A DNA stretch of 64,000 bases from Chloroflexota bacterium (GCA_016876035.1 VGOE01000001.1:27264-91263), one strand, 5' to 3'. Shown: positions 23,090 through 51,219, counted from the first letter of the stretch. Program-made: numbers and translations. The notes: generated by a model from the letters alone, not told the origin.

Positions 23090-23287
23090 AAGAAAGCGAG
23101 TGGTACAGCAGACCATGAAGACCCTGAATCCGAAGCATCTCGCGGCAGTTGCTGTAAGTGCTTTGACGATCTTTCCTGCCATGAGATCCGGAAAGGGATT
23201 GAGCATGGCGCTGGTGACTGCTAAGTGCGGGCAACACACGGCCTTTCGGGTCTTGCGCCAGGAATCAATTGGAGGGAGGAGCGTGTC
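23090..23287 (+). pseudogene. Decayed copy of the 3' end (region 4) of the ECF sigma factor gene. It is a remnant of a tandem duplication of the sigma/anti-sigma unit.
   Basis: Nucleotide similarity to 22590-22823 is clear. For example ttgcgccaggaactggtggaagggagg...catgaactgc matches ttgcgccaggaatcaattggagggagg...catgaaatgc. MKTLNPKHLAAV parallels MNTLDRKHRAVV. The reading frame is not maintained. Confidence 0.55.
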
Positions 23288-26109: not shown

Positions 26110-26154
26110 TGGTAGCGGGGGTTGGATTTGAACCAACGGCCTTCGGGTTATGGG
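26110..26154 (-). repeat. 45-nt copy of the 3' half of the tRNA-Met at 48153-48227 (CCA end through the anticodon loop). It is a putative attL direct repeat.
   Basis: 26110-26154 is identical to 48153-48197 (tggtagcgggggttggatttgaaccaacggccttcgggttatggg). The sequences diverge afterwards. Confidence 0.75.
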
Positions 26155-27558: not shown

Positions 27559-27830
27559 CTGTGAGTACTATAGACACGACTATTACGTCTGTCAAGATGT
27601 GGTTCTGCTCGGTTGGAGTTGGCAAAGGCGGAAGAACCAAGAAGCGTCTACTCTGCATGGAGCTTTAGGCCTCGCCTTTACCCTTGCCATTTAGACCACT
27701 CTACATAGTTAAGGGATTGGGAACCCTCTGTCCAACTGGGATCACATTGTAACTCAGAAGTTGCAAGCAAACTGTCCCCCGCGCTACAATTGACCCGTAG
27801 AGCTTTTAGCAGGCTGAGAAGGGGGTAACT

Positions 27831-28271
27831 ATGAGCCTTTTGGCAGCACTTTCAGGGAAGTCCACATCCGATGAAGAAATTCTAAGTCAACTCAACGAGG
27901 CGGTGATGCAGCTGCAGGCGGATGCTCTAGGCAAGTTGGACGCTTTCGCACTCGGTAAGAAGGAGATTGAACAGAGCCGGCAGAACGTGATTCAGCTTCT
28001 TGAAATTCTCCAGGAACTTCTGTCCCAGACCGGTGACCTGCAATTCGTCATTCCAGATACACCTCAGGAGAGCGCAGCAAAGGATATAGTGCTGAAGCTC
28101 GAATATCGAGGTAGGCCGAGGGCTGACTGGCTCGAGGATATTCACTCAGCCATATCAAACTTGCGTGATAGCAAACCGCTATCTGATTCCGACTGGGTTT
28201 TATTAGAAGACATCGTAGATATACTGGATACAGAGCTTGCCGAAGACTTGAGGGAACTCAGCCGACAGTAA
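27831..28271 (+). CDS. Hypothetical coiled-coil protein (146 aa). It is translationally coupled to the next gene.
   Basis: A TAATG stop/start overlap occurs at 28269-28273. The composition is Leu/Glu/Gln-rich heptad-like. Confidence 0.45.
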   Translation: MSLLAALSGKSTSDEEILSQLNEAVMQLQADALGKLDAFALGKKEIEQSRQNVIQLLEILQELLSQTGDLQFVIPDTPQESAAKDIVLKLEYRGRPRADWLEDIHSAISNLRDSKPLSDSDWVLLEDIVDILDTELAEDLRELSRQ

Positions 28272-29443
28272 TGCGAGCGTATCTGAGGGCAAAGTGCGCA
28301 CAACTAGAAATTGAACTGAATCGGTTACAGGACTACATTGGCCAACAAGAACGGGATGCAACGCATCCCGTTCTTGTTTCTGATTTGAAAGACCACCTCT
28401 GCCAAATGCAGCGGCTGTGCCGACGGTTGTCCGCGATTGCTGAGAATCCCGATGCTGCTTTGTTGAAACGTGCTCATATGTACCTGAGAGATTACGCCTA
28501 TCTTCAGACATCTCTCAGAGTATGGTATCTCCCCGCATGCTTTTATGAAACGGATACGGATCGGCAATTTGGCAGAATCATACGGCACCTGAATAGTAGG
28601 CTTGGTGTGACGCCAATGGAAGACCTTATCGTATCCCACGGGCGCTTTTTCACTACCTTCCCTGGGATACTGAGAGCACCCATTTTCTACGTTCCCTTTG
28701 CTCAGCACCAGAGTCTTGGAGATCTTCCCGCTCTGTACCACGAAGTTGGGCATATTGTCTATCAACATAATCCGCTCTTCGCAACCGAACTCCAGGCAGT
28801 CGTGATCACCCACTACAGCGAGCTTGCGAGAAGAACTTCCCCTATTCCCAGTGTTCAGCAAGAAGAGCGTTTGAAAGCCCTTTCTTGGTGCGTTCAGTAC
28901 TGGAATTGGAGGAAGGCTATCCGAATACAAGAGCTGTTCTGTGATATTTTTGCAGCCAATGTCGTTGGTCCAGCCTTCATTTTCTCGTGGATAGACTTAG
29001 TTATGCGCCAAGCTGGAGAGCCATATCAGTACTCTGAATGCGACGAACATCCCCCGGATGGGTTCAGGGCAACAACCTGCTTCCAGGCGCTCCCAGCAGC
29101 ATGTCGGGATGCGCCACTAGTGGAATGGATGCAACAGGTGTTCACTCAGTATGTCAGCGGGAAACTTCAGCGGAGAGATCCGGTTCCCTACGCCATGCTG
29201 TGTTCAACCGAGCTTATGGAGAAATTGGTGAATAAGGTCAGCGAGCATCTGGAAAGGATTGGGGTACCGGTCTATGCAGGCCCGATCCCTGATCAGTCTC
29301 AGGCACAAGACTTTGCTGATGTGCTCGATCTTGAGGGACTACTTAATGCAGCAGTGGTGAAGCTGTTGGCTGACCCAAACGGCTATAATAGCTGGGAGTC
29401 CGAAATGGTCAGAAGACTCTATGCAGCGCTCCCAACAGCCTAA
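28271..29443 (+). CDS. Putative zinc metallopeptidase with HExxH-x4-H (HEVGHIVYQH). The family is unassigned and could be ImmA/IrrE-like or SprT-like.
   Basis: The motif is LPALYHEVGHIVYQHNP. The protein is 390 aa. Confidence 0.45.
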   Translation: MRAYLRAKCAQLEIELNRLQDYIGQQERDATHPVLVSDLKDHLCQMQRLCRRLSAIAENPDAALLKRAHMYLRDYAYLQTSLRVWYLPACFYETDTDRQFGRIIRHLNSRLGVTPMEDLIVSHGRFFTTFPGILRAPIFYVPFAQHQSLGDLPALYHEVGHIVYQHNPLFATELQAVVITHYSELARRTSPIPSVQQEERLKALSWCVQYWNWRKAIRIQELFCDIFAANVVGPAFIFSWIDLVMRQAGEPYQYSECDEHPPDGFRATTCFQALPAACRDAPLVEWMQQVFTQYVSGKLQRRDPVPYAMLCSTELMEKLVNKVSEHLERIGVPVYAGPIPDQSQAQDFADVLDLEGLLNAAVVKLLADPNGYNSWESEMVRRLYAALPTA

Positions 29444-31704
29444 TCCTCGTCTTTGAGTAGCGTTTCCCGCAGAAGTTCATCATCCCATCGAACGGTTACA
29501 GGCATACTAATGTCAATATCTGGGGCATTCCAGTTGAATTGAGTAAGGCGGAATACATCCTCAGCAACATGTCGGATGTCAAAAGCTCCGCTAGTCTGGG
29601 CCACGCTGACTAGCAATGTTCGGGCAGTTTTCCCCTGCTCGTCCCATTTCTCAGGCTTTCCTGTAGTCGTGATGATAGCTCGTCCCTCATCTAAGATGAG
29701 GTAGCAACCGGGGAACGGGTTCTGAAAGGTTGTTAGGTCATTTGGAGGCCCTGCAACGCTAAATATGCGCACCGGCAGATGTGTCTTACGAAGTTCCACA
29801 ATGGCATGCCTTACTGACCCACCGATGATGCCCTCTGATCGTAGTCGATTTAGGGCATCTTCGATACCCTCACTCTCCTTTGGCCATATGCGCCCGTCCC
29901 GATGAAATATAATACTTTCGAGGTGGAATCCCTGAGTCGCTATTTGCTTAACTGATGAAAGGAGTTCGTCTCGGATTCTCCTGGTCTTGATCGCTTCTTT
30001 TCCACCGCTACTACCTGTCCTCCGTCGCATCTCTCGGCCCCCCTTACCAAACAGGTATGTATAGACGACTCGTGAATCTTGAACGTCTATGCCAACATAT
30101 AGGTCCTGGTGAAGGAGATCAGCAAGAACCCAAGGCTTGCTTCCTGTTGCGATCAAAACACCAAGGGCTAGGTTGCGCAACTTGGATCTGTTAACGCAAA
30201 CCTCCTGGACATTCCCTTCATGAATACACTGAGAGAATACCGACCTGCATGTCTCTTTGAGGAGGGGATGGACCTGGCTGACGGCCTCTGACGGTAGTAC
30301 GCAAACCAGAAGAGCCCTCCGATGATCCCTCACAAGTGTTTCTGCCTCCGAGATCAGATTGCGTCCCTCTAGGTCAGGGGCGTAGGGAATCTGTCGCGAG
30401 AAGCTAAGATCCAGGCCAGATTGAAGCTTGACTTCAGTTACCAGCCTCTGCACAAATTCCTCTCTCAGCCGCCTGCTAAGCGTATTAGGGCAAAGCAGAA
30501 ATGCGACAGGGAGTGGCTCGGTGTGAAAGGGATGGCGCTCATAAAGAGCCTTAATCTTTGCAGGGCCCCAGTGGCGGATAGGATACGGCTCATTGGTGCG
30601 CTTTTGGAGGGCATCTATTCTGATGATGTGACCCTGACCAAATTCGAGCCCCGGCACTTGAAAGAAAGAGCCATCTATATGTAACGGCTCAAAGGACAAA
30701 TCTAGCGGAACATCCCCATAACAGACTTGCCCCAAGTCTTGAAGGAATTCAGATATTAGCTTCATCCGCACTTGCGGACTTAGCTGTGGGGGAATCGAGC
30801 ATTGTCGCAGGCCAATATGCTCTGTGGTAAATCTGGGGAAAAGGCGACTGACTGGGACAGGGAAGGGAGCCGTGCCACGCTCCTTATCCTGTACATAATA
30901 CACTGCCTCTTCATCAGGACTGAGGCTGCTACTGATCTGGGGGTACCGCCTGCGATAATACTCCAGCACTGTTTCGTTCAATTCCTCTAGCCAGAACTCC
31001 GCTATCGTTTGGCCTGTATCTCCAGCGTAAAAGCACCCAAACTTCACAGGCCCGTTGTCTCTTAAGAAGGCTCTTCTATGCTCCATCCGAACATCGCAGT
31101 GCTCGCGTAGCTGTTCCTCAAGCCCACGATCTCTATAGTCAAGCAAGGAGAGGCGGGATACATAGCGTGTCGCAACATCCACAGCAAGAAATAATCTTCC
31201 GCCTCGGATGGAAGTCACCCCAAAAGAGAACCCACGATATGCGTTTATGATGTCGGAAGCTTTGTCCTGATTATCCGGCGACACACGGAAAAATCGAGTC
31301 CAGGTGTCGCGCCAATAGTTAGGCTGATTTCGAAGTGTATCTGAAAAGGCGCGCTCCACCATGCTAGCGACAAACTCCAGATCTGCCCCGCTTGCTACTC
31401 GAAGGTCTACAGAAATGATCTCATCCGTGGGATCAACGTGGTAGGTCATATGAGGCACATCTTTGAAAGTGAGATCAGCATTAGTCATGTCGACGTCGGC
31501 TGGCATGATGAAATACGCGTCGGTGTCTCGTGACCGTGGAAAGACAGGGCACTTGAGGCGCCTCCTCCACATCTCATCTGCCCATTTCTGGACACGGACT
31601 GGTCTATAGTTATCATCAGGTAGCCGTTCTCGAACTTTGAGTAACCTGTACCTAAAATCGAGCTGCTGGGAATTTCGTATTTCGAACAGGGTGTATGCTA
31701 GCAC
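29440..31704 (-). CDS. Long prokaryotic Argonaute (pAgo) with a PIWI domain.
   Basis: PIWI-domain signatures are present. RALLVCVLPSE...ETCRSVFSQCI...NLALGVLIATGSKPWVL...LYVGIDVQD holds the first catalytic Asp in GIDV. IIFHRDGRI is the RDG motif. C-terminal AFDIRHVAEDVFRL parallels the YYAHLAAFRAR region with His. The length is 754 aa. The start overlaps the stop of the upstream nuclease gene. Confidence 0.7.
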   Translation of the reverse strand: MLAYTLFEIRNSQQLDFRYRLLKVRERLPDDNYRPVRVQKWADEMWRRRLKCPVFPRSRDTDAYFIMPADVDMTNADLTFKDVPHMTYHVDPTDEIISVDLRVASGADLEFVASMVERAFSDTLRNQPNYWRDTWTRFFRVSPDNQDKASDIINAYRGFSFGVTSIRGGRLFLAVDVATRYVSRLSLLDYRDRGLEEQLREHCDVRMEHRRAFLRDNGPVKFGCFYAGDTGQTIAEFWLEELNETVLEYYRRRYPQISSSLSPDEEAVYYVQDKERGTAPFPVPVSRLFPRFTTEHIGLRQCSIPPQLSPQVRMKLISEFLQDLGQVCYGDVPLDLSFEPLHIDGSFFQVPGLEFGQGHIIRIDALQKRTNEPYPIRHWGPAKIKALYERHPFHTEPLPVAFLLCPNTLSRRLREEFVQRLVTEVKLQSGLDLSFSRQIPYAPDLEGRNLISEAETLVRDHRRALLVCVLPSEAVSQVHPLLKETCRSVFSQCIHEGNVQEVCVNRSKLRNLALGVLIATGSKPWVLADLLHQDLYVGIDVQDSRVVYTYLFGKGGREMRRRTGSSGGKEAIKTRRIRDELLSSVKQIATQGFHLESIIFHRDGRIWPKESEGIEDALNRLRSEGIIGGSVRHAIVELRKTHLPVRIFSVAGPPNDLTTFQNPFPGCYLILDEGRAIITTTGKPEKWDEQGKTARTLLVSVAQTSGAFDIRHVAEDVFRLTQFNWNAPDIDISMPVTVRWDDELLRETLLKDED

Positions 31705-31705
31705 C

Positions 31706-32641
31706 TCACCACTCCCTGCATATTCGCTGAAATGGGCAACGCTCGCAAATCTTCACATGCCGGGCATAGCTAAAATCCCGAATATCTGCCACGCCTGTAT
31801 CAGGATCAACCATGAGTGCGCTAATGTTTTCTACGCTTCTCCTGATAACTGCTAACCGGTTCCACTTAGCTTCGGGGTCCAACGTAAAAGCTTCAACCTG
31901 CGGAGTCTCCAAGTTAACGGCATACGCTGTGGTGTCCCTAAGCTCAATACTCAAAGCCAGGTGTGGCCAAAGAAGGTAGCACTCCATTTGCCCCGAATAA
32001 CTTCGTGCATCAGACTTCCCAGTCTTCCAGTCATAGATCGCAAATCGGCCATCGCTGTTTCGCACAGCAAGATCTACCTTAACTGTGACCTTTGTAGTCT
32101 CGAAGTCAAATGCTGTAGCCCCTGGCCCAAATGTCGGGGGCTCAATCCAAACCCGGTTAGCGGTGGCTAGAATCTGCGGAATCCTCAGGGTGTCCCGAAT
32201 GTCACCGAAATTGTCCAAGCAGGTTCTGATCGTAGTTAGTATCCTGCTGAAAGTATCAAGCGGTAGCTGGATTCCATATTCATGCTCAAAGATAGCACCA
32301 AACTCCTCTCCTGCTCTCGTTGGCGCAACTTGGCGGTAGAGTTTCCTCTCAGAAAAATTCCACTGGCGCTCTGCGAGGTCCGCAGCCTTTTCTCGAAGGT
32401 CTTCCACCGACCAACGATGCCCGTTTGCCAGTTCCTTCAGCGACTTTGCAACAGTGGTATGCAAAAGGTCACCGACCCACGCCGAGAGTGTTTTTAGTTG
32501 CCGCAGAATCGCCACCTCTTTCAACAAAGGCTTCCTTGAATTGCGACGCGCTCCAGCCAAGTAATGAAAGAATAGCTGTCGCTCGCAGACTTCTAGCAGG
32601 TTGCCTTTCGAATACGACCATGATCGCTTTGTCGAGTCCAT
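31706..32641 (-). CDS. Cas4/AddB-like PD-(D/E)xK nuclease with a 4-Cys iron-sulfur cluster motif. The start is taken at the internal Met because the longer ORF overlaps the upstream gene.
   Basis: The PD-(D/E)xK core is VKVDLAV...GRFAIYDWKTGK. C-terminal CERCPFQRIC (C-x2-C-x5-C) plus an N-terminal Cys (EVCERQ) match the Cas4/AddB Fe-S arrangement. It lies immediately upstream of pAgo. Confidence 0.7.
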   Translation of the reverse strand: MDSTKRSWSYSKGNLLEVCERQLFFHYLAGARRNSRKPLLKEVAILRQLKTLSAWVGDLLHTTVAKSLKELANGHRWSVEDLREKAADLAERQWNFSERKLYRQVAPTRAGEEFGAIFEHEYGIQLPLDTFSRILTTIRTCLDNFGDIRDTLRIPQILATANRVWIEPPTFGPGATAFDFETTKVTVKVDLAVRNSDGRFAIYDWKTGKSDARSYSGQMECYLLWPHLALSIELRDTTAYAVNLETPQVEAFTLDPEAKWNRLAVIRRSVENISALMVDPDTGVADIRDFSYARHVKICERCPFQRICREW

Positions 32642-32654
32642 AACGCTTGCTGTC

Positions 32655-33044
32655 TTACGGAATATTGAAGGGACTGTAGAAATGTCCCACGCCCTGCGGC
32701 TCCAGGCGGTTGCCGAACAGGGGCCGCAGGCGAATCTCCTGGTTGCGCCAGTACATCTTGGGCTCCACATCCATAGTCAGCTTGTCCACGGGCAAGAGAA
32801 CGACCGGACTGCGGCGCAAGAGCCTCTCACCAGCCTCATAGAGGATATCGTGGAGTGGCTTCAAGTCACTCATTGTTGCCATGATTCGGTCCAGCCCTGC
32901 AACCTTAACTCGCCTGGGCAAAGTGTCCCTGGCTTGAAGACGTTGAAGGAACTGAACAATGCTCATTACTTCTGAGTCATCCTCGTAGCGCTGGCCAATA
33001 AGCCCCCTTTCCACCAGGTTGTAGCCGGCCTTCAATCCTTCCAT
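32655..33044 (-). CDS. Hypothetical protein (129 aa) within the defence operon.
   Basis: It lies 10 nt downstream of the methyltransferase stop and on the same strand. Confidence 0.4.
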   Translation of the reverse strand: MEGLKAGYNLVERGLIGQRYEDDSEVMSIVQFLQRLQARDTLPRRVKVAGLDRIMATMSDLKPLHDILYEAGERLLRRSPVVLLPVDKLTMDVEPKMYWRNQEIRLRPLFGNRLEPQGVGHFYSPFNIP

Positions 33045-33054
33045 AATACGCCCT

Positions 33055-35685
33055 CTACATTAGCCTCCGCTTCCCAGCTCCCAGCGCCTCGGCATGCTCC
33101 CGCAGGCGGTCATAGACCTTCACCCCGGTCTTCTTGTAAAGTAGGTCCAGCACCTGCACTAGGCCATCTCGCCGCCACCGCTCCAGCTCAGGTCGGATGT
33201 CCAGCCCGCTCTCCAGGACAGCATACAGGTAGTGGGCAATATCTATGAGAGGAAGAGGGTGTCCCCGCTCTATCTCTTTCTCTATGAACTCCAGGCGTTT
33301 TGAGGGAGTCATGGGCGCTATGGTCCGCCCTTTGCGCTCCTCAAGATACTGGCGGCGGTTGAACTCCTCCAGACTGAAGCCTCCCCCGGTAGTGAATCGC
33401 TTGCGCAAGTCGTCCCAAGTCAACCCCCTCTCCCCGGCAATGTAAAGAAGGTAGAGTTGGGTGGTTTCATCCAGGCCAGCGGGCAGTAGCTTCAGTTCGT
33501 AGGACTTGATGAGGAAGTCTACCATCCCCTCAATCTCGTCCACGGCGGTATCCACGTCCACGGGCTGGCCACCCCGCATGACATTGGGCCAGTGCCTCGA
33601 ATAGACCTCCAGGCAGCGCCCCATGGCAATGACGAAGAGGTCCGCGTCGCTGATGCGCCGCCCTGAGCGGCGGATGGCTCCCACTGTCTCCTCAACTTTG
33701 GCATGAATCTCGTCCTTGAGACTTTCCCAGGCAACCCGCCTTGGCTCCTCCAAGCGCTTGCGGCATACGAAGGGAATGTCATACGCGATGCCACCAGTTT
33801 TCAAGAGATGCGTGGAGGTCTTCATCTCGGCATGAACAGGGTAGACAGCCGAGACATAGAAGCCTGCCTCCACGATGCTCCGTAGGACAGATTTCCAGGC
33901 CCAAGGTTCCTTATGGTGGAAGGTGAAGACAAATGGCCCATCATCCTTCAGCACCCGGTGAGATTCCTTGAACACCCGAGTGAGTCCCCCGAAGAAGAAG
34001 TCCTCCGCATCCTTCTCTGCCTGCCCGGGCTTCTTGCTGGTGTTATGACGGGCAGTGTTCTTTACGATCTCCCTAGCCCTCGGTGATACCTCCGTTTCAA
34101 ACCAGGGATACTGCTCCTTAAGCCCCAGCTTGAGCCAAACATAGAAGAAGTCAGCCAGCTCCGAGTACATCACATTGTCACAATAGGGCGGGTCTGTGAT
34201 GACGGCGTCCATCGAATTGTCAGCCAGGAAAGCCATGTCTTCAGAAGTATCAGCCCCGAGTGCCACTTGACGTTTATCGCCTGCGAGCCGAAATTGGCTA
34301 ACTTGGCTCAGGGGTAACACCCGGTCAACTGTGCCACTTTCTCCCAATTTCAGGCGGGCTGCTTTCCCGCCCCTGATAGTAATCTCATACGGTGAAACAC
34401 TGTAAGTCTTGGCTGCTCTAACTTTCTGCCAAGTGCCTGCAAATGAATTTCCCCCACCCCTTGTGCCCCATATATTGCTCTCAACGGGCATGTTCGTCGG
34501 CCAGTAAGCATGGCGAGAAAATAATGGCATGATTTGGTAACTATCCGCCCTATACCGACAGAACATGTTGCTGAAATCTGTGAACTCTGATAGCGCCAGC
34601 AACCCAAGTTCCCTTACATTCTGATCCTCTATTCTTAGAATCTCCTTCAGCAGCAGGGAGAGACACAGGAGCTGCCGCTCGTTGAACATTTGGTGGAAGT
34701 ATTTGTAGCCGTAGTTGATAGGCCGGGGATCGCTGCGCCCTTCATTGGGAATCTTGGCGCGCGGGAAGAGCAGCCCGTCCTTCAGCCGCTGAAACTCTGC
34801 TCTGGCCTCTTCGTATAAAGCCTTATCGCTGCCCGTGACCCCTTTATAACCTCGGCGGCATGCGGGGCAGTAATACTCCAGGGCGAACATCTCGGCCTCG
34901 GGCGGGCCCTCCCGCCTCTGGATAGCCTTGAGAATGTTCTCCTTCTGCCCGCAGGCGGGGCAGGTGTATTTCCCACCCCCGGCGTATCCCTCTTCCGGCA
35001 CGTATTCCATACCACACTCGGAACATTCCACAGGGCTGTCCAGGGAATCAACATTGCTCTTGATGTGATAACAATGGGGGCAAAAGACGATATGCTTGCT
35101 ACTCTTGATGGCGATGCGGAAGGAAGGAAAGAGCTTTACCTCTTCGCCACAAGCCAGACAGGGCACCTTCTTCACCCAGAAGGCATACATGATGTCAGCC
35201 TCATGGCCTTGAGGACAAGTAGTGCGGTAGTAGCGCTTGAGCCGGGGGGCGATAGTTCTCTCCAGGTGCTTGAAGGCAGCGTCCAGGGCATCAAACTCTA
35301 CCGGGTCTATCTCCTTCTTGGTGACGAACCAGGCCACCGGATTGAGATCGATGCCGACCACCTTGCACCCCAGGCGCAGGGACTCCACCACCGTGGTGCC
35401 TCCGCCCATAAAGGGGTCCAGGATGATGGGTAGCTTGCCCTCTTTGTTCTTAAGCTCGTTCTTGGAGTAGAAGCGGCTCCACAGGCGGCGCTGGTTCTCC
35501 TCCGGGGAAAGAGAGTCGTCCCACTCGGCGAAGGCAGCCAGGATAAGCATGCGGAAGACACTGCCCAGGCGCCTGGCCCACCACTTGTGAATCATATATA
35601 TAGGGCGCCTCATACCTAAGCCTGTTTCAGCAGTGGCGACCTCGTTTAAGGCTTCTATGGGCAGGTCACGCTCTATGTAGCGCAT
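33055..35685 (-). CDS. DNA methyltransferase with a DUF1156-type N-terminus (amino-methyltransferase, DPPY motif) and inserted zinc-ribbon clusters.
   Basis: The N-terminal reads IHKWWARRLGSVFRMLILAA (DUF1156 WWARR signature). The SAM motif is ILDPFMGGGTTVVE. The catalytic motif IV is VITDPPYCDNVMYSE. Multiple CxxC pairs are present. The protein is 876 aa. Confidence 0.8.
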   Translation of the reverse strand: MRYIERDLPIEALNEVATAETGLGMRRPIYMIHKWWARRLGSVFRMLILAAFAEWDDSLSPEENQRRLWSRFYSKNELKNKEGKLPIILDPFMGGGTTVVESLRLGCKVVGIDLNPVAWFVTKKEIDPVEFDALDAAFKHLERTIAPRLKRYYRTTCPQGHEADIMYAFWVKKVPCLACGEEVKLFPSFRIAIKSSKHIVFCPHCYHIKSNVDSLDSPVECSECGMEYVPEEGYAGGGKYTCPACGQKENILKAIQRREGPPEAEMFALEYYCPACRRGYKGVTGSDKALYEEARAEFQRLKDGLLFPRAKIPNEGRSDPRPINYGYKYFHQMFNERQLLCLSLLLKEILRIEDQNVRELGLLALSEFTDFSNMFCRYRADSYQIMPLFSRHAYWPTNMPVESNIWGTRGGGNSFAGTWQKVRAAKTYSVSPYEITIRGGKAARLKLGESGTVDRVLPLSQVSQFRLAGDKRQVALGADTSEDMAFLADNSMDAVITDPPYCDNVMYSELADFFYVWLKLGLKEQYPWFETEVSPRAREIVKNTARHNTSKKPGQAEKDAEDFFFGGLTRVFKESHRVLKDDGPFVFTFHHKEPWAWKSVLRSIVEAGFYVSAVYPVHAEMKTSTHLLKTGGIAYDIPFVCRKRLEEPRRVAWESLKDEIHAKVEETVGAIRRSGRRISDADLFVIAMGRCLEVYSRHWPNVMRGGQPVDVDTAVDEIEGMVDFLIKSYELKLLPAGLDETTQLYLLYIAGERGLTWDDLRKRFTTGGGFSLEEFNRRQYLEERKGRTIAPMTPSKRLEFIEKEIERGHPLPLIDIAHYLYAVLESGLDIRPELERWRRDGLVQVLDLLYKKTGVKVYDRLREHAEALGAGKRRLM

Positions 35686-35694
35686 GGCGACTTC

Positions 35695-36030
35695 TCACTT
35701 CTTCGTTGGCGGGTGGAAATGTGTCTCAGAGCGAAGGGACGTTGGAAAATCACATTTCCCACACCAGAGGTCCCGATCAAGATTTTTGTGGCGTGTCCAT
35801 CCATGGTGGTCTTCAAGCGTTCTCTGAACCTGACGCTGCCAATTGCCGCCTTTGTGGAGAATGTTGGCAGGCACAAGCGAACCAAATTCCGGATAGACAA
35901 CGGGGTTGTTGCTCGCTGCAAGCTGTTGAGCGCAGTTCAGAACCGCTGAGTCACAGGCAGGGCAAAGGGGCCATGGCCAACTGCTATAGTCGGGCTTCGT
36001 ATGGTTAGAATTCCAACTGCATGAGCGCAT
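35695..36030 (-). CDS. Hypothetical zinc-ribbon protein (111 aa, 4 Cys) in the defence operon.
   Basis: Two Cys pairs are present (CPACDSAV...CGKCDF). It lies 9 nt upstream of the methyltransferase start. Confidence 0.35.
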   Translation of the reverse strand: MRSCSWNSNHTKPDYSSWPWPLCPACDSAVLNCAQQLAASNNPVVYPEFGSLVPANILHKGGNWQRQVQRTLEDHHGWTRHKNLDRDLWCGKCDFPTSLRSETHFHPPTKK

Positions 36031-36061
36031 TTTACTTCCCTCGCAACATTCAGCTTCCCCT

Positions 36062-36289
36062 TCATCTCCTGCAGAGAGACAAACTCCCCTTCTTGCCCTC
36101 GGCCCAGGCTTTACGGGACCTCTTTACCTGGTGCGCCAGTTCCTCGCCGCCCAGGATCTCCGCCGTTGCCTCCCACTCATCCCTCTCCCTGAGGTAGGCG
36201 GCAAAGTCAGCCACCGCCTTAACCCTGTCCTCTGAAAGGGACTTGACCTCTTCCAGTAACTTGCCCTTGTAGCCACCAGCCTTAGCCAC
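36062..36289 (-). CDS. Small hypothetical protein (75 aa, GTG start) in the defence operon.
   Basis: A GTG start is preceded by AGAGGGGGTGA. It lies 6 nt after the PglZ-domain gene stop. Confidence 0.4.
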   Translation of the reverse strand: MAKAGGYKGKLLEEVKSLSEDRVKAVADFAAYLRERDEWEATAEILGGEELAHQVKRSRKAWAEGKKGSLSLCRR

Positions 36290-36295
36290 GATTCA

Positions 36296-37243
36296 TCACC
36301 CCCTCTTTAGCCTTATCACAGGTACCAGACACTCCATGAGTGAAATGCCGCCATGTGCCACATCCGACTGCTTGCCAGGGGCACTCCAGTAGTAGCGCCC
36401 CCGGACATAGCACCCCTTATCATCGAACAGAACATAGGTATGGTCTTTGGGAAGAGCACGCAGCACCTCAAACTCTCCGGCATTCGGGCCATCGAATGTG
36501 ATCCCCCGCTGGGCACCAAAGAGCTTCAGAAGCACCTTGCGATTGGAGACGGGGGCGTGCCAGAAAAGGGCAGCGGACTGGGCATATACATAGCCATGGT
36601 CAGAGGTGAGCACCACCTCCTTCGTTTCCAGCATGTTTAGAATCTTGAGCAGAGCCTCCTCCGTCCGTTGCAAAGCAAAGGAAGGGGTAACCCCCTTGCC
36701 TTTCATGGGATGCATCAGTTCGTCTGGAAAGGAAAGCCATACCAACGCCTTTGGTCCCTGCAGGAAGATCGGAACATCGCCCGACCTGATGGAGCGGAAG
36801 GTGAATCCCTGCCACTTCTTGGGCATAGCTGCCGCTCCTGCTACTCCGAAGACATCACGGAAGAAAGCCCGTGTCGTCGATGGCACCCCTGAGTAGGCAT
36901 AGGAGTATTGTGCAGGGTCGAAGCCCTTTTCTTTGAGCCGGGGCATTAGCCAGTTGGCCTCTCTGAGGGAGAGGCCGTCCAGCACAACGATGGACGCCTC
37001 CAGGCAACTGAACTCGGCTGTCCTGTTCTGGGATCTGGCCCGCTCCAACAGCAAATCGTAGAGTTCAAAGTAGGTATCCCTTATGAACTCCTCCAGATTA
37101 TTGGTCTCGCGCTCTTGCTGGACATAGAAAGCATCCACATCGCCTGAGTCACCTGATGTCCATATATCATTTAGAGCCTTGAACAAAGGGCCGACAGGAT
37201 CGTCCTGGGTGAGAAGCTGTGTGACAAGGCTATTCAGATTCAT
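36296..37243 (-). CDS. Stand-alone PglZ-domain protein (alkaline-phosphatase superfamily fold).
   Basis: Motifs IVVLDGLSLRE, GVPSTTRAFF and VVLTSDHGYVY resemble the PglZ/BrxZ metal-binding and catalytic Ser/Thr signatures. The start overlaps the ATPase stop by 14 nt. Confidence 0.6.
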   Translation of the reverse strand: MNLNSLVTQLLTQDDPVGPLFKALNDIWTSGDSGDVDAFYVQQERETNNLEEFIRDTYFELYDLLLERARSQNRTAEFSCLEASIVVLDGLSLREANWLMPRLKEKGFDPAQYSYAYSGVPSTTRAFFRDVFGVAGAAAMPKKWQGFTFRSIRSGDVPIFLQGPKALVWLSFPDELMHPMKGKGVTPSFALQRTEEALLKILNMLETKEVVLTSDHGYVYAQSAALFWHAPVSNRKVLLKLFGAQRGITFDGPNAGEFEVLRALPKDHTYVLFDDKGCYVRGRYYWSAPGKQSDVAHGGISLMECLVPVIRLKRG

Positions 37244-39821
37244 GCTTCTCCACCTCCAGGGTGGCCTTGATGATGCCCTCTGAGGGAACGGGCAGCTTGC
37301 CCAGGAGCTTCATCAGCTCGTCCTTCGCCATAGCCCGAGGCATCCATAGCTTTACAGACAGCTCAACCTGGCTGACGCCTTTCTTGCCCTTGAAGTCCGC
37401 CAGCAATTCTTCTAACTTGCTCGCCTCTTCCATCGCCTTACCTCTGAGAGATATGGTGACAGAAGCAACTTTGTCACCCGAGGAGAGACGTCCCTCTAAC
37501 TCAGTGACCATCTTGAAGGGAGTAGTATGTTCCTGGCTAGCAAGGGGCACAGTCTCCCTTTCGGCGACCTTTTTGTCCTCTTTCACCGCCGTGCCGCCTT
37601 CGGGCGTCCGCTCATACTCTGTAGTTTCCCCAGGCACTACCTTCTCCGGCTCTTTCTCGGCGGTAATGGCCACCCCTCCGGGAACCGATGGCCCATACTG
37701 CGCCAGATAAAGCCGCATCTCGTCCAGGACTTCGTGGCACGGGTTGCTCTTATCATAGAGGCGCTTGTCCAACTCCAATATGATCTCACCGCTGACGCAG
37801 AGGCTGCGTACTCGGGAGGGCAAGGTTTCAGCATCCAGCAAAAGAGGCCTCCCCACTTGCTTCATGAACATACTTTTCAGCTCATCAAACCTTCTACCTT
37901 GCCCCTGGGCTTCGGCCAACTCCGTTATAATGGCATCGTCCACCACCTCGGTGCTAGCAGCGCTCCTGACCTTGTCGGCGATGTCTTCGGTGCTTAGCTC
38001 ACAGGCGACCGGGCGGAAATATACCTGGGCACCTTTGCCACTGGCCTTCATCCACTCTCCATAAGCCCGCTGCACCCGGTTTCGCAGTTCATCCTCTTGT
38101 TGCTGCTGGTATTCACTCAGGGCTTTCTTCTTGTCTGCCCCTACCTCTGTTTCCATAGCTTGGCAAACCAGGATGCGCTGGGCCCTAATTAGCAGCTCTT
38201 CGCTTTGAGCAAGATCGCCCCCGGTCTTGGGACGAACCAGGATAACCATATTTCGCCATTCTCTGCCATGAAAGATCTTGTCCCGGATGTCATCGCTCTC
38301 CACAAACTTGGTTGACACTAATATCCTAAGCTGGCGGGTATCAGGAATTTCGCTATCAAGTGGGTAGATACTGACGTCCATACCCTTGAGGAAGCTCTTA
38401 ATAACCTCAGCCAGCTTGCTCTGAGCAGCCTTGGAGTCTTCCGCAAGCTGTCTTTCAGCCCGGGCATTGATACTAATGGGGAGGTTTTCCTCGTCTCTAA
38501 ACACATAACGACCATTCAGCGGATGGACAAACCAAGCATTCAGAGCACCTTGCCTAAGCTTGGATAGCACAAGGTTTATCTGATTTATGTCCCTCTGCAG
38601 AGTAAGATTTCCCAGGACTATTTGCCCCTCATTTGCACCGGGCTGGCCCGCCACAAAGGAACGAAGAAGAATTGTGGACAGAATGCCCCTAGCCAGCTTT
38701 TCGTCTTTGGTCCGCTTGATGTCGCTGAGACACCGTTCCACCAGCACCGGCTCCAGCTTAAAGAGGTCATCCTGAACCTCTTCATTTTCTGGGTTTATGT
38801 CGGAGGAGAGTAACAGATCTCTCTCTGCAGCGCAGTCACGGAGGACACTAGAGAGGAGATAGAGGATGCCACGGGTATTCTGATAATTTCGGGAAGCACC
38901 AAAGCTCTGGAAAAGAACCTCCAAAAGCTCGGGGTGAAGGGGGTAGTATTTGAGCATTTGGGAACGATAAGCATCGATAGGCTCGACAACAGTTTCCAGG
39001 GAACCCTTGATGTCTGCATAGCGCTTCACATAGGCTTCCACCACTCTCTTGGCCTTGGCCTTGTCGATGCTTTGGAACAGCCTGAACCGAATGACCTCCG
39101 CCTTGTCCTCCGAAGCTCCCAGGTCTTGAATGAAGACCTGCTCCCTGCCCAGCCTTCCCAAGATTCCTTCACTCCTACCGTATAGCGAAATCAAGACAAT
39201 CAACTTGCAGTCGCTATCTGAGCTTACCTCTGAAAGGACCTGGAGGAAGTTGAGGTTGCGAGTTTTCCTTACAGGGTCGGCGATGGCCTCATACCAGGAT
39301 TCGAGCTCATCCATGATAATGACAACTGGTTCCTTGCCGATGGCTTCTTTGAACTGGGTGATGGTCGGATAGTCACGAATCTGGCCAAGCATGGAGGCCT
39401 TCCCTAGCCCCTTGAACACGGGCTCCCATAAGAACTCTGGATTCCCCTCTTCCCCCTCCATCAACTGCAACACAACTGGCATAGCCTGTGGTAATTGAAC
39501 TTTGATAGACCACCTGTCCTGCCAGGCTTTGGCCACATTAGGAGCCGCAAACAGGTGGTATAGCACAAGCAGACAGTGCGACTTGCCGGTGCCATAGCCA
39601 CCGGCAAAGATGAAAGTGCCATGAGCTCTTCTACCCGAGAGCCGCTCGGTTATTGCTTTTAGCGCCTGGGAGAGTGCATGGGAAGGGTAGGTTATGGAAA
39701 GGATGCGATCGGCTGAGGCTTCTGGCTTGGTTGGGATAGTCACATTATATAACCTTACTATCCCGAAGATGTCGCCTTTCTGGGCTTCATCAGAAAGTGA
39801 AACAACATCGTTGATTAACAT
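37230..39821 (-). CDS. Large P-loop ATPase of the BrxC/PglY-like family (DUF499-like).
   Basis: Walker A is FAGGYGTGKSHCLL. Walker B is VVIIMDELESW. It is the first gene of the operon, with about 480 nt of non-coding DNA upstream. The protein is 863 aa. Confidence 0.7.
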   Translation of the reverse strand: MLINDVVSLSDEAQKGDIFGIVRLYNVTIPTKPEASADRILSITYPSHALSQALKAITERLSGRRAHGTFIFAGGYGTGKSHCLLVLYHLFAAPNVAKAWQDRWSIKVQLPQAMPVVLQLMEGEEGNPEFLWEPVFKGLGKASMLGQIRDYPTITQFKEAIGKEPVVIIMDELESWYEAIADPVRKTRNLNFLQVLSEVSSDSDCKLIVLISLYGRSEGILGRLGREQVFIQDLGASEDKAEVIRFRLFQSIDKAKAKRVVEAYVKRYADIKGSLETVVEPIDAYRSQMLKYYPLHPELLEVLFQSFGASRNYQNTRGILYLLSSVLRDCAAERDLLLSSDINPENEEVQDDLFKLEPVLVERCLSDIKRTKDEKLARGILSTILLRSFVAGQPGANEGQIVLGNLTLQRDINQINLVLSKLRQGALNAWFVHPLNGRYVFRDEENLPISINARAERQLAEDSKAAQSKLAEVIKSFLKGMDVSIYPLDSEIPDTRQLRILVSTKFVESDDIRDKIFHGREWRNMVILVRPKTGGDLAQSEELLIRAQRILVCQAMETEVGADKKKALSEYQQQQEDELRNRVQRAYGEWMKASGKGAQVYFRPVACELSTEDIADKVRSAASTEVVDDAIITELAEAQGQGRRFDELKSMFMKQVGRPLLLDAETLPSRVRSLCVSGEIILELDKRLYDKSNPCHEVLDEMRLYLAQYGPSVPGGVAITAEKEPEKVVPGETTEYERTPEGGTAVKEDKKVAERETVPLASQEHTTPFKMVTELEGRLSSGDKVASVTISLRGKAMEEASKLEELLADFKGKKGVSQVELSVKLWMPRAMAKDELMKLLGKLPVPSEGIIKATLEVEKHESE

Positions 39822-40304
39822 GGTTACCCCTCCCAGAGTCGCTTTCTGTGAAGTATCAGCTGCACCTAAAGAATGATCAGCATCAGGATTTCAGTATACT
39901 CCATTTTGTAGACCTTGAGAAGACAACGAATTGTGAAGAATTTCTCAAAGGTCACAACTTTTCGTCAGCTTCTGGACTCGCCAAATCCCTGGCAGGGTCT
40001 ATCTAGCTCTATGGCGACTGACCAATCTATCGACTCCCAAAGCAACTAATCCCACCCCAAATCCCCTGGCCGGGCTATCTTGCAGCCATTCCTGCCCTGA
40101 TTATTTCCTCTGAAGTCTTGACGGGACAGACCAAATGAGGTACTTTTTGCTTACCTACCACTGGCGGATTTTAAGCCGTCCCGAGGTGGCCCATTTGGGT
40201 GACCGGTGACACCTTGACAAGTACTATTATGATGGTCTAACATTCTGGCGCAGCTTTGTCCGAAAACGTTGAGCGTTACATAGATTCATGAACTATGTTC
40301 TGGG

Positions 40305-46267: not shown

Positions 46268-46939
46268 ATGGCAGTCAAGCGCAAACGAGCCAAGATTACA
46301 CATAAAGAAGAAACCATGATTCTTGACTACTCACGTAGGTTCCGCAAGTTGGGACGAACCCAATTGGCTGAAAAGATTCAGGCAGAAGTCAAATGGTCGG
46401 GCAAGCCTCCTGAAATAGAGGTATTGGAGAAAAAAATATCGAAGTATAGAAAAATTAATGACCCCGAGGAGGAACCCTGGGATATGTCTAAACTAGACAA
46501 GTATCCCATTCCGCCGGAAGCGCTACCCTCAGTGATACTGTGCTACGTCTATCGACTGGAACATGGCGACACCTTACTTACTGTCCGGGAAGCCAAGTGG
46601 GTTTCACGCATCTATGCTATTTGGAAAGACAAGGCAGAAGAGTATGTAAAAGCGCTCGATTATATCGCTTCGTTTCTCGCCCTGGGTGAAGTCAGCATGG
46701 AATTTATCGAAAGATCAAGCACCAGGAACAGAGATTTGGCAACTTTGCATAGCAACCTTCGCATGATGAACGTCATATGGCTTTACGGACAAATCACTAG
46801 AAAGCCGCCGAGTGAAGAGTTAGTAAGATGGATTAAGAACAAAATGGACGAGTGGCCGGAAGAGCTGAAGGCCCAATTTCCAGATTGGTTTAGGGAGGCA
46901 GATAATGAGAGGTCACATAATCAAGCGATACAAGAATAG
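46268..46939 (+). CDS. Hypothetical protein (223 aa) upstream of the integrase.
   Basis: An ORF with an RBS-like GGGATTAAG precedes the ATG. No motif was recognised. Confidence 0.45.
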   Translation: MAVKRKRAKITHKEETMILDYSRRFRKLGRTQLAEKIQAEVKWSGKPPEIEVLEKKISKYRKINDPEEEPWDMSKLDKYPIPPEALPSVILCYVYRLEHGDTLLTVREAKWVSRIYAIWKDKAEEYVKALDYIASFLALGEVSMEFIERSSTRNRDLATLHSNLRMMNVIWLYGQITRKPPSEELVRWIKNKMDEWPEELKAQFPDWFREADNERSHNQAIQE

Positions 46940-48152: not shown

Positions 48153-48227
48153 TGGTAGCGGGGGTTGGATTTGAACCAACGGCCTTCGGGTTATGGGCCC
48201 GACGAGCTACCACTGCTCCACCCCGCG
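48153..48227 (-). tRNA. tRNA-Met (anticodon CAU), initiator-type.
   Basis: The RNA reads CGCGGGGTGGAGCAGTGGTAGCTCGTCGGGCCCATAACCCGAAGGCCGTTGGTTCAAATCCAACCCCCGCTACCA. Positions 1:72 are mismatched (C:U). Three G:C pairs close the anticodon stem. The anticodon loop is CCCAUAA. A CCA end is encoded. Confidence 0.85.

Positions 48228-48254: not shown

Positions 48255-51219
<2,965 letters not shown>

What the first reader, a model, noticed from the sequence alone, without database searches (positions are those of the whole stretch)
29440..39821. Composite eight-gene defence operon fusing a BREX-like DUF499/PglZ/DUF1156 module with Cas4-like nuclease and long pAgo
Eight co-directional minus-strand genes are packed with gaps of -14 to +31 nt. 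The order is: BrxC/PglY-like P-loop ATPase, stand-alone PglZ domain, a 75-aa protein, a 111-aa Zn-ribbon protein, the DUF1156-type DNA methyltransferase, a 129-aa protein, the Cas4/AddB-like Fe-S PD-(D/E)xK nuclease and a long Argonaute with a PIWI domain. The only sizeable non-coding stretch, about 480 nt, lies upstream of the ATPase. This implies a single transcription unit. Each half resembles a known defence theme: a BREX-like ATPase/phosphatase/methyltransferase triad, and pAgo with a Cas4-like nuclease partner. I do not know a described system in which both are hard-wired into one operon. The DUF499/DUF1156/PglZ combination itself is, as far as I recall, only computationally noted and not characterised. 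Either point would make this a candidate novel defence system. It could be a self/non-self methylation mark coupled to guide-directed nuclease interference.
Basis: partly seen in the sequence, partly recalled or inferred. Interest (0 to 1): 0.9.

Follow-up and report, generated by a model that had tools for sequence, protein, structure and literature searches.

The report
Two adjacent defence systems, not one
The apparent eight-gene hybrid defence operon is two separately inherited anti-invader systems, a methylation-based BREX-related system and an Argonaute cassette, lying back to back on a 22-kb mobile island; each is a variant of a recently described kind.

Summary
The ORFs and most domain calls are real: DUF499 ATPase, stand-alone PglZ, DUF1156 methyltransferase, Cas4-like nuclease and a long Argonaute. 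The "single fused system" reading does not hold. In 80 loci with the same stand-alone PglZ, the conserved unit is DUF499–PglZ–(variable insert)–methyltransferase–DUF8076, and none has an Argonaute. In 23 distinct loci with related Argonautes, from about ten phyla, the conserved unit is nuclease–Argonaute plus a ~140-aa protein and a ~385-aa HExxH protein. Only one of the 23 loci (L120) shows a BREX-related gene next to the cassette.

- The first half is a helicase-less variant of the "Type-3 BREX-related" system (NAR 2026).
- The second half belongs to the DNA-guided, RNA-cleaving Argonaute operons. Its closest solved structure is VbAgo, and the DEDD tetrad is intact.
- The "111-aa Zn-ribbon gene" is unsupported.
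- The 75-aa gene is a toxin–antitoxin remnant.
- Both systems are cargo of a 22,043-bp island in tRNA-Met of a Chloroflexota MAG.
- Co-transcription is plausible (13-nt gap) but untested.

The parts
26110..26154 (.). Left island boundary (attL): 45-nt exact copy of the 3' half of tRNA-Met
   Evidence: The repeat is found at 26110 and 48153, 22,043 bp apart; 0 matches were expected by chance.
27831..28271 (+). 146-aa acidic, predicted all-helical protein; conserved partner in the pAgo cassette
   Evidence: Homologues lie next to related pAgos in at least 17 distinct loci in which tblastn detected it, at 25-53% identity. No Pfam, PADLOC, NCBIfam or PDB sequence match. A promoter-like site lies at 27761-27790.
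28271..29443 (+). 390-aa HExxH protein (putative gluzincin-type Zn peptidase with an N-terminal four-helix domain); conserved partner in the pAgo cassette. Its stop overlaps the pAgo stop by 4 nt (convergent genes).
   Evidence: A homologue is adjacent in all 23 distinct pAgo cassettes. H157, E158, H161, E221 and D225 are invariant. The family has 780 representatives at 50% clustering. The AF2 model has pLDDT 95.9. No significant PDB fold match.
29440..31704 (-). Long, catalytically competent Argonaute of the DNA-guide/RNA-target (gD-tR) group, VbAgo-like
   Evidence: PDB VbAgo 9v65, E=3.9e-156, residues 2-749. The DEDD tetrad (D540, E570, D603, D742) is invariant in 19 homologues. PADLOC pAgo_II 5e-70.
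31706..32641 (-). Cas4-family PD-(D/E)XK nuclease, 311 aa (ACE2-like in length)
   Evidence: Pfam PDDEXK_1 4e-15; PADLOC Aga_Cas4-like_Nuc 6e-33. C19, D190, D204-W-K206, Q218 and Y222 are invariant; C299, C302 and C308 are at least 90% conserved.
32655..33044 (-). DUF8076 (129 aa): last gene of the BREX-related operon; possibly the degenerate P-loop ('iSTAND'/BrxB-like) adaptor
33055..35685 (-). DUF1156-type N6-adenine DNA methyltransferase with a nested Zn-finger target-recognition insert
   Evidence: The sequence carries FMGGGTT and DPPY motifs and several CxxC pairs. A segment at about 34212-34609 shows no DNA homology to close relatives. dN/dS 0.09-0.14.
35695..36030 (-). 111-aa ORF: probably not a gene. 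It lies in 343 nt of non-homologous DNA that replaces a ParE toxin gene.
36062..36289 (-). 75-aa antitoxin remnant of an embedded toxin-antitoxin pair
   Evidence: 81% identical over 70 aa to the 82-aa partner of ParE in L011; the C-terminus is frameshifted. Weak DUF2281 match.
36296..37243 (-). Stand-alone PglZ (315 aa), the presumed effector phosphodiesterase/nuclease
   Evidence: D89, S92, T124, D215, H216, H297 and E304 are invariant in 20 homologues down to 23% identity. dN/dS 0.09-0.12.
37230..39821 (-). DUF499 AAA+ ATPase (Walker A GGYGTGKS, Walker B IIMDE)
   Evidence: dN/dS 0.07
39893..39921 (-). Promoter-like site about 70 nt upstream of the ATPase gene (weak evidence)
   Evidence: Site counts in the region are not above those in shuffled sequence.
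46905..48082 (+). Island integrase, split into two ORFs (Arm-binding + SAM-like domains; catalytic domain)
48153..48227 (-). tRNA-Met; its 3' half is the right island boundary (attR)

Best explanation
Two autonomous defence systems sit next to each other as cargo of a 22-kb integrative island in tRNA-Met of a Chloroflexota MAG (GenBank proteins MBM4461747-56).

System A (39821-32655) is a compact, helicase-less variant of the DUF499-centred 'Type-3 BREX-related' system.
- Inferred by analogy with BREX and MANTIS: the DUF499 AAA+ ATPase acts as DNA-binding scaffold and loader.
- Inferred: the DUF1156 methyltransferase marks host DNA by N6-adenine methylation of a short motif. Its hypervariable insert would set the motif.
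- Inferred: the stand-alone PglZ is the metal-dependent effector acting on unmarked DNA.
- Inferred, more tentatively: DUF8076 is a degenerate P-loop adaptor linking PglZ to the ATPase, as BrxB does in BREX.
- A decayed toxin-antitoxin pair is embedded between PglZ and the methyltransferase. This position is a hotspot for inserted accessory genes in relatives.

System B (27831-32641) is a four-gene cassette of the DNA-guided, RNA-cleaving Argonaute group.
- Inferred: the Cas4-family nuclease generates or trims single-stranded DNA guides.
- Inferred: the DEDD-active Argonaute uses those guides to cut invader transcripts.
- Shown: a 146-aa helical protein and a 390-aa HExxH protein always travel with the cassette. 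Inferred: they probably form a regulatory or licensing protease module.

Shown overall: gene content, conservation, independent inheritance of the two systems, and the island borders. The biochemical roles, and read-through transcription of the nuclease-Argonaute pair from the System A promoter, are inferences.
For: - Independent inheritance, System A: 80 of 80 PglZ loci lack the pAgo, nuclease, 146-aa and 390-aa genes. 60 to 62 of them show DUF499 or the methyltransferase, and 32 show DUF8076, always in the same order.
- Independent inheritance, System B: 23 distinct pAgo loci, from Thermoproteota, Chloroflexota, Cyanobacteriota, Verrucomicrobiota, Gemmatimonadota, Actinomycetota, Thermodesulfobacteriota and others, keep nuclease-pAgo plus the small and HExxH genes in three different arrangements. 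22 of the 23 have no System A gene.
- Boundary of homology: DNA homology to System A relatives stops exactly at the DUF8076 stop codon (32659).
- Selection: System A genes are under purifying selection, dN/dS 0.07-0.14.
- Argonaute activity class: full-length match to VbAgo, with an intact DEDD tetrad. VbAgo and PliAgo are DNA-guided RNA cleavers, and their operons carry a Cas4-like nuclease (PMC13219720, PMC9360449).
- Published descriptions: Type-3 BR (PMC12839542) and the mechanism of the related MANTIS system (bioRxiv 10.64898/2026.09.23.753747).
- Island: att repeats and integrase.
Against: - The nuclease gene starts 13 nt after DUF8076, with no recognisable promoter, Shine-Dalgarno sequence or terminator. 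The two systems may therefore share a transcript.
- In L120, the closest pAgo relative (54% identity), a PglZ C-terminus ends about 36 nt upstream of the nuclease. Adjacency to a PglZ system therefore occurs in 2 of the 3 members of this sub-clade.
- System A lacks the helicase that the published Type-3 BR definition lists as a core component.
- The HExxH protein has no significant structural neighbour.
- No biochemical function was tested.
Confidence: 0.75

Rival explanations
1. The eight genes form one integrated system in which a methylation mark set by the BREX-like half tells the Argonaute-nuclease half what to attack or spare.
For: - Tight packing and a 13-nt junction with no terminator.
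- The window cassette and its closest relative both lack the HTH or sigma-like regulator gene found in many other cassettes, and both sit directly behind a PglZ-system gene.
- BREX-related loci often embed auxiliary effectors (PMC12839542).
Against: - 0 of 80 PglZ loci hold an Argonaute, and 22 of 23 Argonaute cassettes hold no BREX-related gene.
- The two junctions differ: after DUF8076 in the window, after PglZ in L120.
- The Argonaute's nearest characterised relatives cut RNA, which carries no DNA methylation mark (PMC13219720).
- The Argonaute's true conserved partners lie on the other strand with a promoter-like site of their own.
Confidence: 0.1
2. The locus is a decaying relic. The island is fixed in place and one or both systems are no longer functional.
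For: - The integrase is split into two ORFs.
- The antitoxin is frameshifted and the toxin is lost.
- System A has no helicase, and the cassette has no regulator gene.
Against: - All eight large or conserved ORFs are intact.
- Catalytic residues are conserved in PglZ, the methyltransferase, the nuclease, the Argonaute and the HExxH protein.
- dN/dS for System A is 0.07-0.14.
- The compact four-gene form without a helicase recurs in many loci, 13 of them with a 4-nt PglZ/methyltransferase overlap.
- The identical locus is found in four sequencing runs.
Confidence: 0.1

Closest known systems
Type-3 BREX-related (BR) system, DUF499-centred (Rakesh & Krishnan, NAR 2026, PMC12839542; computational description only)
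   Same: - DUF499 AAA+ ATPase.
- DUF1156 N6-methyltransferase with a nested insert carrying two 4-Cys zinc fingers.
- A stand-alone PglZ with active-site residues, encoded as a separate gene.
- Possibly the inactive P-loop 'iSTAND' component, if DUF8076 is that protein.
   Different: - No BrxHII-like helicase in the operon or anywhere in the island, although the paper lists the helicase as one of three core components.
- The compact four-gene form recurs in many metagenomic loci.
- DUF8076 is not named in the paper.
- A toxin-antitoxin remnant is embedded in the operon.
MANTIS / Type-2 BR (Gao_RL), and Hma / Type-1 BR
   Same: They share the homologous DUF499 ATPase and DUF1156 methyltransferase. 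MANTIS shows experimentally that the ATPase plus a small co-factor load the methyltransferase for adenine hemimethylation.
   Different: Those systems use a helicase-nuclease effector, and MANTIS also has the small DUF3780/DUF3870 protein. Here the effector is PglZ and the small protein is DUF8076.
Type-3 BREX (BrxF, BrxC, PglXI, BrxHII, PglZ, BrxA)
   Same: PglXI-like methyltransferase (PADLOC 2e-21), a PglZ domain, and an ORC/Cdc6-type ATPase.
   Different: - The ATPase is DUF499-type, not BrxC/DUF6079 (16 bits, below the cutoff).
- PglZ is a lone domain.
- BrxA and the BrxHII helicase are absent.
Operons of DNA-guided RNA-targeting pAgos (PliAgo and PnyAgo groups, Lisitskaya et al. 2022, PMC9360449; VbAgo, PMC10448046 and PMC13219720)
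   Same: - A long DEDD Argonaute, with full-length similarity to VbAgo.
- It is preceded by a PD-(D/E)XK nuclease distantly related to Cas4.
- The operon composition is conserved and spread horizontally across phyla, including Chloroflexi.
   Different: - The window has no HTH or sigma-70 regulator.
- The 146-aa/HExxH pair is convergent to the Argonaute rather than co-directional.
- The text of those papers, as read here, does not discuss the two extra conserved genes.
APACE1 (long-A pAgo + ACE1 Cas4-family nuclease; Bobadilla Ugarte et al. 2025, PMC12094033)
   Same: An active Argonaute co-encoded with a Cas4-family nuclease that has one N-terminal and three C-terminal Cys and a D-DxK motif. 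In APACE1 the nuclease trims DNA guides.
   Different: - The nuclease is 311 aa, matching ACE2 in length (mean 313) rather than ACE1 (mean 278).
- The Argonaute belongs to a different clade.
- APACE1 Argonautes cut DNA.
- The authors state that APACE1 conclusions cannot be carried over to ACE2 systems.
BPAN (long-B pAgo + nuclease, abortive infection; PMC10620215)
   Same: An Argonaute with an adjacent nuclease partner.
   Different: BPAN Argonautes are catalytically dead and activate the nuclease. Here the DEDD tetrad is intact.

Membership tests
Type-3 BREX-related (BR) system | DUF499-type AAA+ ATPase | tested here: met
   Pfam PF04465, 44.4 bits (cutoff 23). PADLOC HmaC 8e-19 and DUF499 9e-14. 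Walker A and B motifs present. The NCBIfam equivalog model scores far below its cutoff (83 against 1200 bits), so this is a distant member.
Type-3 BREX-related (BR) system | DUF1156 N6-adenine methyltransferase with a nested recognition insert | tested here: met
   N6_N4_Mtase 42 bits (cutoff 26.7); PADLOC HmaB 6e-45 and DUF1156_MTase 3e-24; DUF1156 N-terminal domain 20.6 bits, below the cutoff of 24. About 400 aa with several CxxC pairs separate motif I from DPPY.
Type-3 BREX-related (BR) system | Stand-alone PglZ with active-site residues, as a separate gene | tested here: met
   315 aa. Pfam PglZ 24.7 bits, just under the cutoff of 25; PADLOC 8e-7; homologues carry PF08665. D89, S92, T124, D215-H216, H297 and E304 are invariant. 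The fold was not modelled.
Type-3 BREX-related (BR) system | BrxHII-like helicase (without a nuclease) in the core locus | tested here: not met
   No helicase among the island genes. Compact relatives also lack a helicase-sized neighbour. The one large insert examined, in L013, encodes an AAA_22 ATPase plus an Mrr nuclease.
Type-3 BREX-related (BR) system | Inactive STAND (iSTAND) component, present in 82% of taxa | tested here: inconclusive
Canonical BREX (types 1-6) | BrxC/PglY (DUF6079) ATPase, multidomain PglZ, and BrxA, BrxB and BrxL partners | tested here: not met
   DUF6079 16 bits, below the cutoff of 23. PADLOC BrxC matches only the N-terminal P-loop region (6e-6). PglZ is a lone domain. 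No BrxA or BrxL genes.
MANTIS / Type-2 BR and Hma / Type-1 BR | Helicase-nuclease effector (plus the small DUF3780/3870 protein in Type-2) | tested here: not met
   No such genes in the operon or island.
DNA-guided RNA-targeting (gD-tR) pAgo operon | Long pAgo with a DEDD tetrad, related to biochemically proven members | tested here: met
   VbAgo E=3.9e-156 over residues 2-749; PliAgo 4e-21. D540, E570, D603 and D742 are invariant.
DNA-guided RNA-targeting (gD-tR) pAgo operon | PD-(D/E)XK, Cas4-related nuclease gene directly upstream of the pAgo | tested here: met
   1-nt gap between the genes; PADLOC Aga_Cas4-like_Nuc 6e-33; Fe-S cysteines and the D..DxK..QxxxY motifs are conserved.
DNA-guided RNA-targeting (gD-tR) pAgo operon | HTH regulator or sigma-70-family factor in the operon | tested here: not met
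   No homologue of the cassette-linked HTH or 196-aa genes in the window. Such genes are present in L005, L007, L028, L029, L115, L117 and others.
DNA-guided RNA-targeting (gD-tR) pAgo operon | [quoted passage not shown] | not testable with these tools
   Inferred only from homology to VbAgo (PMC10448046, PMC13219720).
APACE1 (long-A pAgo + ACE1) | ACE1-clade nuclease (about 278 aa, cyanobacterial) with its cognate pAgo subclade | tested here: not met
   The nuclease is 311 aa, and homologues are 293-363 aa, matching the ACE2 mean of 313 (PMC12094033). No PDB sequence match to any solved nuclease. No phylogeny against ACE1 and ACE2 sequences was run.
BPAN (long-B pAgo + nuclease) | Catalytically inactive pAgo | tested here: not met
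   The DEDD tetrad is intact and invariant.

The most novel reading that the evidence does not exclude
In this Argonaute sub-clade the nuclease-Argonaute pair has lost its own regulator and become docked behind PglZ/DUF499 operons. This is seen twice: after DUF8076 in the window and after PglZ in L120. The result would be a co-transcribed two-layer defence, in which methylation-based discrimination of DNA and DNA-guided cleavage of invader RNA are expressed, and perhaps act, together. The 146-aa/HExxH pair would serve as a separate protease switch.
Probability: 0.15. Interest if true: 0.75.

Novelty: new variant of a known kind. Interest (0 to 1): 0.45.

Why it matters
- System A is a four-gene, helicase-less BREX-related system with PglZ as its only candidate effector. 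It is about the smallest setting in which to test what PglZ does and how a DUF499 ATPase loads a methyltransferase. Both are open questions for BREX.
- The in vivo role of RNA-cleaving prokaryotic Argonautes is unknown. These Argonautes travel with a Cas4-like nuclease, a small helical protein and a large orphan HExxH family (780 representatives, with no Pfam family and no structural neighbour in the PDB). This defines the full unit that should be cloned and mutated.
- The case also shows that tight packing in a defence island does not make one system.

Tried and rejected
- Sequence searches of the 390-aa, 146-aa and DUF8076 families against Pfam, NCBIfam, PADLOC and PDB gave nothing meaningful.
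- The word-indexed homologue search with the 390-aa protein found a single hit. The exhaustive HMMER search was needed to find the family.
- The promoter and terminator scan is not above shuffled expectation, so it neither proves nor excludes a single transcript.
- A scan of viral contigs with the pAgo alignment found nothing. The plasmid collection holds only distant pAgos of 24% identity or less.
- The idea that the large inserts between PglZ and the methyltransferase in relatives encode the missing helicase and iSTAND was rejected for L013, where the insert is an AAA_22 ATPase plus an Mrr nuclease.

Full report
**What is in the sequence**

Eight co-directional minus-strand ORFs lie between 39821 and 29440. 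Profile searches confirm the large ones:
- 863 aa: DUF499 AAA+ ATPase (Pfam 44 bits; PADLOC HmaC 8e-19; Walker A GGYGTGKS, Walker B IIMDE).
- 315 aa: a lone PglZ domain. Pfam gives 24.7 bits against a cutoff of 25, and PADLOC gives 8e-7.
- 876 aa: DUF1156-type N6-adenine methyltransferase (PADLOC HmaB 6e-45, PglXI 2e-21; FMGGGTT and DPPY motifs separated by a Cys-rich insert).
- A PD-(D/E)XK nuclease (PADLOC "Aga_Cas4-like_Nuc", 6e-33).
- 754 aa: an Argonaute (PADLOC pAgo_II, 5e-70).

The PglZ call is strengthened by 44 homologues, most of which carry PF08665. Alkaline-phosphatase-type residues (D89, S92, T124, D215-H216, H297, E304) are invariant in an aligned subset of 20 of them, down to 23% identity.

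The nuclease starts at 32641, not at the first ATG of the ORF. Fourteen homologues align from there, and the invariant N-terminal Cys19 would otherwise be misplaced or lost.

**Corrections to the small genes**

- The 129-aa product is Pfam DUF8076.
- The 75-aa product is 81% identical to an 82-aa antitoxin that pairs with a ParE toxin in the closest relative (L011). Its C-terminus is frameshifted.
- The ParE gene itself is replaced in the window by 343 nt of unrelated DNA.
- The "111-aa Zn-ribbon" ORF lies in that replacement. It has no homologue in the 114 loci fetched by then. The metagenome gene callers did not call it, GenBank has no locus tag for it, and its exact sequence is not in the 15-billion-protein collection. 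I treat it as not a gene.

**The two halves are inherited separately**

Neighbourhoods of the stand-alone PglZ:
- L011 is a Chloroflexi MAG, 82% identical. L013/14 are 45% identical and L016 is 42% identical. All show the order DUF499, PglZ, a variable insert, methyltransferase, DUF8076, and then unrelated genes.
- A metagenome scan with a PglZ alignment returned 80 loci. tblastn finds DUF499 in 60, the methyltransferase in 62 and DUF8076 in 32, always in that order. It finds the Argonaute, the nuclease and their partners in none.
- Thirty-five loci outside the window's own population have DUF8076. Of these, 24 have at least 1 kb and 9 have at least 3 kb of sequence beyond it, with no nuclease or Argonaute.
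- DNA homology between the window and four relatives ends at 32659, the DUF8076 stop.

Neighbourhoods of the Argonaute:
- Its homologues come from 17 genomes plus metagenomic contigs, 23 distinct cassettes in all. Source organisms include Nitrosotalea, Thermodesulfobacteriota, Microcoleus, Okeania, Chloroflexi, Bifidobacteriaceae, Opitutaceae, Akkermansia, Gemmatimonadota and Longimicrobiaceae.
- Every cassette has the Cas4-like nuclease directly upstream of the Argonaute.
- Every cassette also has a protein of about 380 aa, and tblastn detects a protein of about 140 aa next to it in at least 17 of them. These are homologous to the window's plus-strand genes at 28271-29443 and 27831-28271.
- The pair occurs downstream and co-directional (most loci), upstream (L005, L007), or convergent (the window, L120, L121).
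- Profile HMMs built from the BREX-related clade find no DUF499, methyltransferase, DUF8076 or PglZ in these loci, with one exception described below.

The real units are therefore 39821-32655 (System A) and 27831-32641 (System B).

**System A**

[quoted passage not shown] Type-3 BR has the ATPase, the DUF1156 methyltransferase, a BrxHII-like helicase without a nuclease, a stand-alone active PglZ, and an inactive STAND protein in 82% of taxa. A subset have two 4-Cys fingers in the methyltransferase insert, as here.

The window matches except for the helicase. None is present in the operon or the island.
- The helicase-less form is not an accident of this locus. Thirteen loci have PglZ and the methyltransferase overlapping by 4 nt, and the compact loci show no helicase-sized neighbour.
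- The space between PglZ and the methyltransferase is variable. It holds a toxin-antitoxin pair in L011 and its remnant in the window, and an AAA_22 ATPase plus an Mrr nuclease in L013. In L016, BrxL sits between DUF499 and PglZ.
- This agrees with the embedded "auxiliary effectors" the paper describes.

Mechanism, by analogy only. In MANTIS (Type-2 BR) the DUF499 ATPase and a small co-factor are both needed to load the methyltransferase for adenine hemimethylation (bioRxiv 10.64898/2026.09.23.753747). In BREX, BrxB bridges PglZ to BrxC (same source). I therefore expect ATPase-assisted methylation as the self mark, with PglZ as the effector. A 250-350-nt segment of the methyltransferase gene (about 34212-34609) has no DNA homology to relatives that are otherwise 75-83% identical. 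That fits a variable target-recognition region.

**System B**

- The Argonaute matches the solved VbAgo over its whole length (E=3.9e-156), and PliAgo over the PIWI domain.
- The DEDD tetrad (D540, E570, D603, D742) is invariant in 19 homologues. The Argonaute is therefore not a long-B, BPAN-type protein.
- VbAgo, PliAgo and PnyAgo use DNA guides to cut RNA. Lisitskaya et al. noted that such Argonautes sit in operons of constant composition with a Cas4-related PD-(D/E)XK nuclease and an HTH or sigma-70 regulator, spread across phyla including Chloroflexi (PMC9360449; PMC10448046; PMC13219720).
- The window's nuclease has the Cas4/AddB hallmarks: one N-terminal and three C-terminal Cys, D190, D204-x-K206 and Q218-x3-Y222. 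Its 311 aa match ACE2 rather than ACE1 of the APACE systems (PMC12094033).

The 390-aa partner has an invariant HExxH (H157, E158, H161) plus E221 and D225.
- Its family has 780 representatives at 50% clustering.
- It has no Pfam, NCBIfam, PADLOC or PDB sequence match.
- Its model is very confident (pLDDT 95.9, pTM 0.93). It has four long N-terminal helices, three short strands, the HExxH helix and a later helix bearing E221. This is a gluzincin-like layout.
- Distant family members are again found in HTH-nuclease-Piwi-small-HExxH cassettes (L115, L117). One small/HExxH pair occurs without an Argonaute (L118).

I infer that this is a protease-based regulatory or licensing module. The substrate is unknown.

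**Genomic setting**

- A 45-nt exact copy of the 3' half of tRNA-Met (48153-48197) recurs at 26110-26154.
- The 22,043 bp between the repeats carry a split tyrosine integrase next to the tRNA (46905-47306 and 47375-48082), an excisionase-like gene, DUF3854/DUF3987 primase-helicase-like genes, a second short recombinase, a P-loop/HTH protein, and both defence systems.
- The proteins are in GenBank as MBM4461747-56 (locus tags FJ012_00230-00270) of a Chloroflexi MAG, named only as hypothetical or DUF proteins.
- The identical locus occurs in four sequencing runs.

- The nuclease gene begins 13 nt after DUF8076, with no Shine-Dalgarno sequence, promoter-like site or terminator-like site. The only promoter-like sites in sensible positions lie upstream of the ATPase (39921-39893) and of the 146-aa gene (27761-27790). 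The scan is not above shuffled background, and Chloroflexi promoters may differ. Read-through from System A is therefore plausible.
- The two closest Argonaute relatives (L120 at 54% and L121 at 53%) share the window's convergent layout.
- In L120 the first 93 nt of the contig encode a PglZ C-terminus (…HDGLSLMECVVP…; profile E=1e-6) that stops about 36 nt before the nuclease.
- L121 is cut 75 nt upstream of the nuclease, so nothing can be said for it.
- Adjacency to a PglZ system thus occurs in two of three members of the sub-clade, but at different positions in the operon.
- Many other cassettes carry their own XRE-HTH or sigma-like gene. The window has none, and no such gene precedes the nuclease in L120.
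- I could not extend this lead because the look-ups were exhausted. I give 0.15 to a real, lineage-specific coupling.

**Verdict**

The interpretation as one fused, novel system is not supported. The locus holds a helicase-less variant of a computationally described BREX-related system. Next to it sits a member of the RNA-targeting Argonaute operons, whose two extra conserved genes have not been studied. Both were brought in by a tRNA-Met island.

Noticed in passing
L120:1-93 (contig logan:SRR22388292_14470): The closest relative of the window's Argonaute cassette has the C-terminus of a PglZ gene ending about 36 nt before the Cas4-like nuclease. This is a second, differently placed adjacency of a PglZ system and this pAgo sub-clade.
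   Followed up: partly
window 28344-28378: A perfect 16-bp-stem hairpin (AACAAGAACGGGATGC-AAC-GCATCCCGTTCTTGTT) lies inside the 5' part of the 390-aa HExxH gene, 70 nt after the overlapping stop and start with the 146-aa gene. It could be an attenuator or a protein-binding site.
   Followed up: no
window 48255-51219 and 48153-48227: A complete 23S rRNA gene is followed directly by tRNA-Met. No 5S or 16S rRNA reaches the Rfam threshold anywhere in the 64-kb window, so the rRNA genes appear unlinked. The island's attachment site lies immediately downstream of the 23S gene.
   Followed up: no
window 46905-47306 and 47375-48082: The island's tyrosine integrase is split into two ORFs, one with the Arm-binding and SAM-like domains and one with the catalytic domain. 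This suggests a frameshifted, possibly immobilised island. A second short recombinase-like gene lies at 42360-43040.
   Followed up: partly
window about 34212-34609 (within the methyltransferase gene): This segment has no detectable DNA homology to four relatives that are otherwise 75-83% identical across the gene. It is probably the variable target-recognition part, which would imply a different methylation motif.
   Followed up: partly
L118:7600-9128 and L117:5311-7710: The small-protein/HExxH pair also occurs without any Argonaute (L118, near sigma-like genes). One family member is a 799-aa fusion (L117), and others are 609 and 632 aa (P0096, P0132). The pair may be a portable module used by more than one system.
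   Followed up: partly
L013:10228-15625; L016:5253-6653; L011:10955-11450: The interval around PglZ in BREX-related operons is an insertion hotspot. It holds an AAA_22 ATPase (1529 aa) plus an Mrr-type nuclease, a BrxL Lon-like ATPase, or a ParE toxin-antitoxin pair in different relatives.
   Followed up: partly
window 55059-56627: A PIF1-family helicase fused to a WYL domain lies outside the island. It was not examined further.
   Followed up: no
window 22726-22949 and 23194-23417: A 224-nt direct repeat (72% identity, 468 nt apart) lies just upstream of, and into the start of, a zf-HC2 anti-sigma/beta-propeller gene (23225-25546).
   Followed up: no
window 29440-31704 and 28271-29443 (GenBank MBM4461750.1, MBM4461749.1): The public annotation truncates the Argonaute to 688 aa and represents the 390-aa HExxH protein by a 146-aa fragment. 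Neither is named as an Argonaute or a peptidase.
   Followed up: partly
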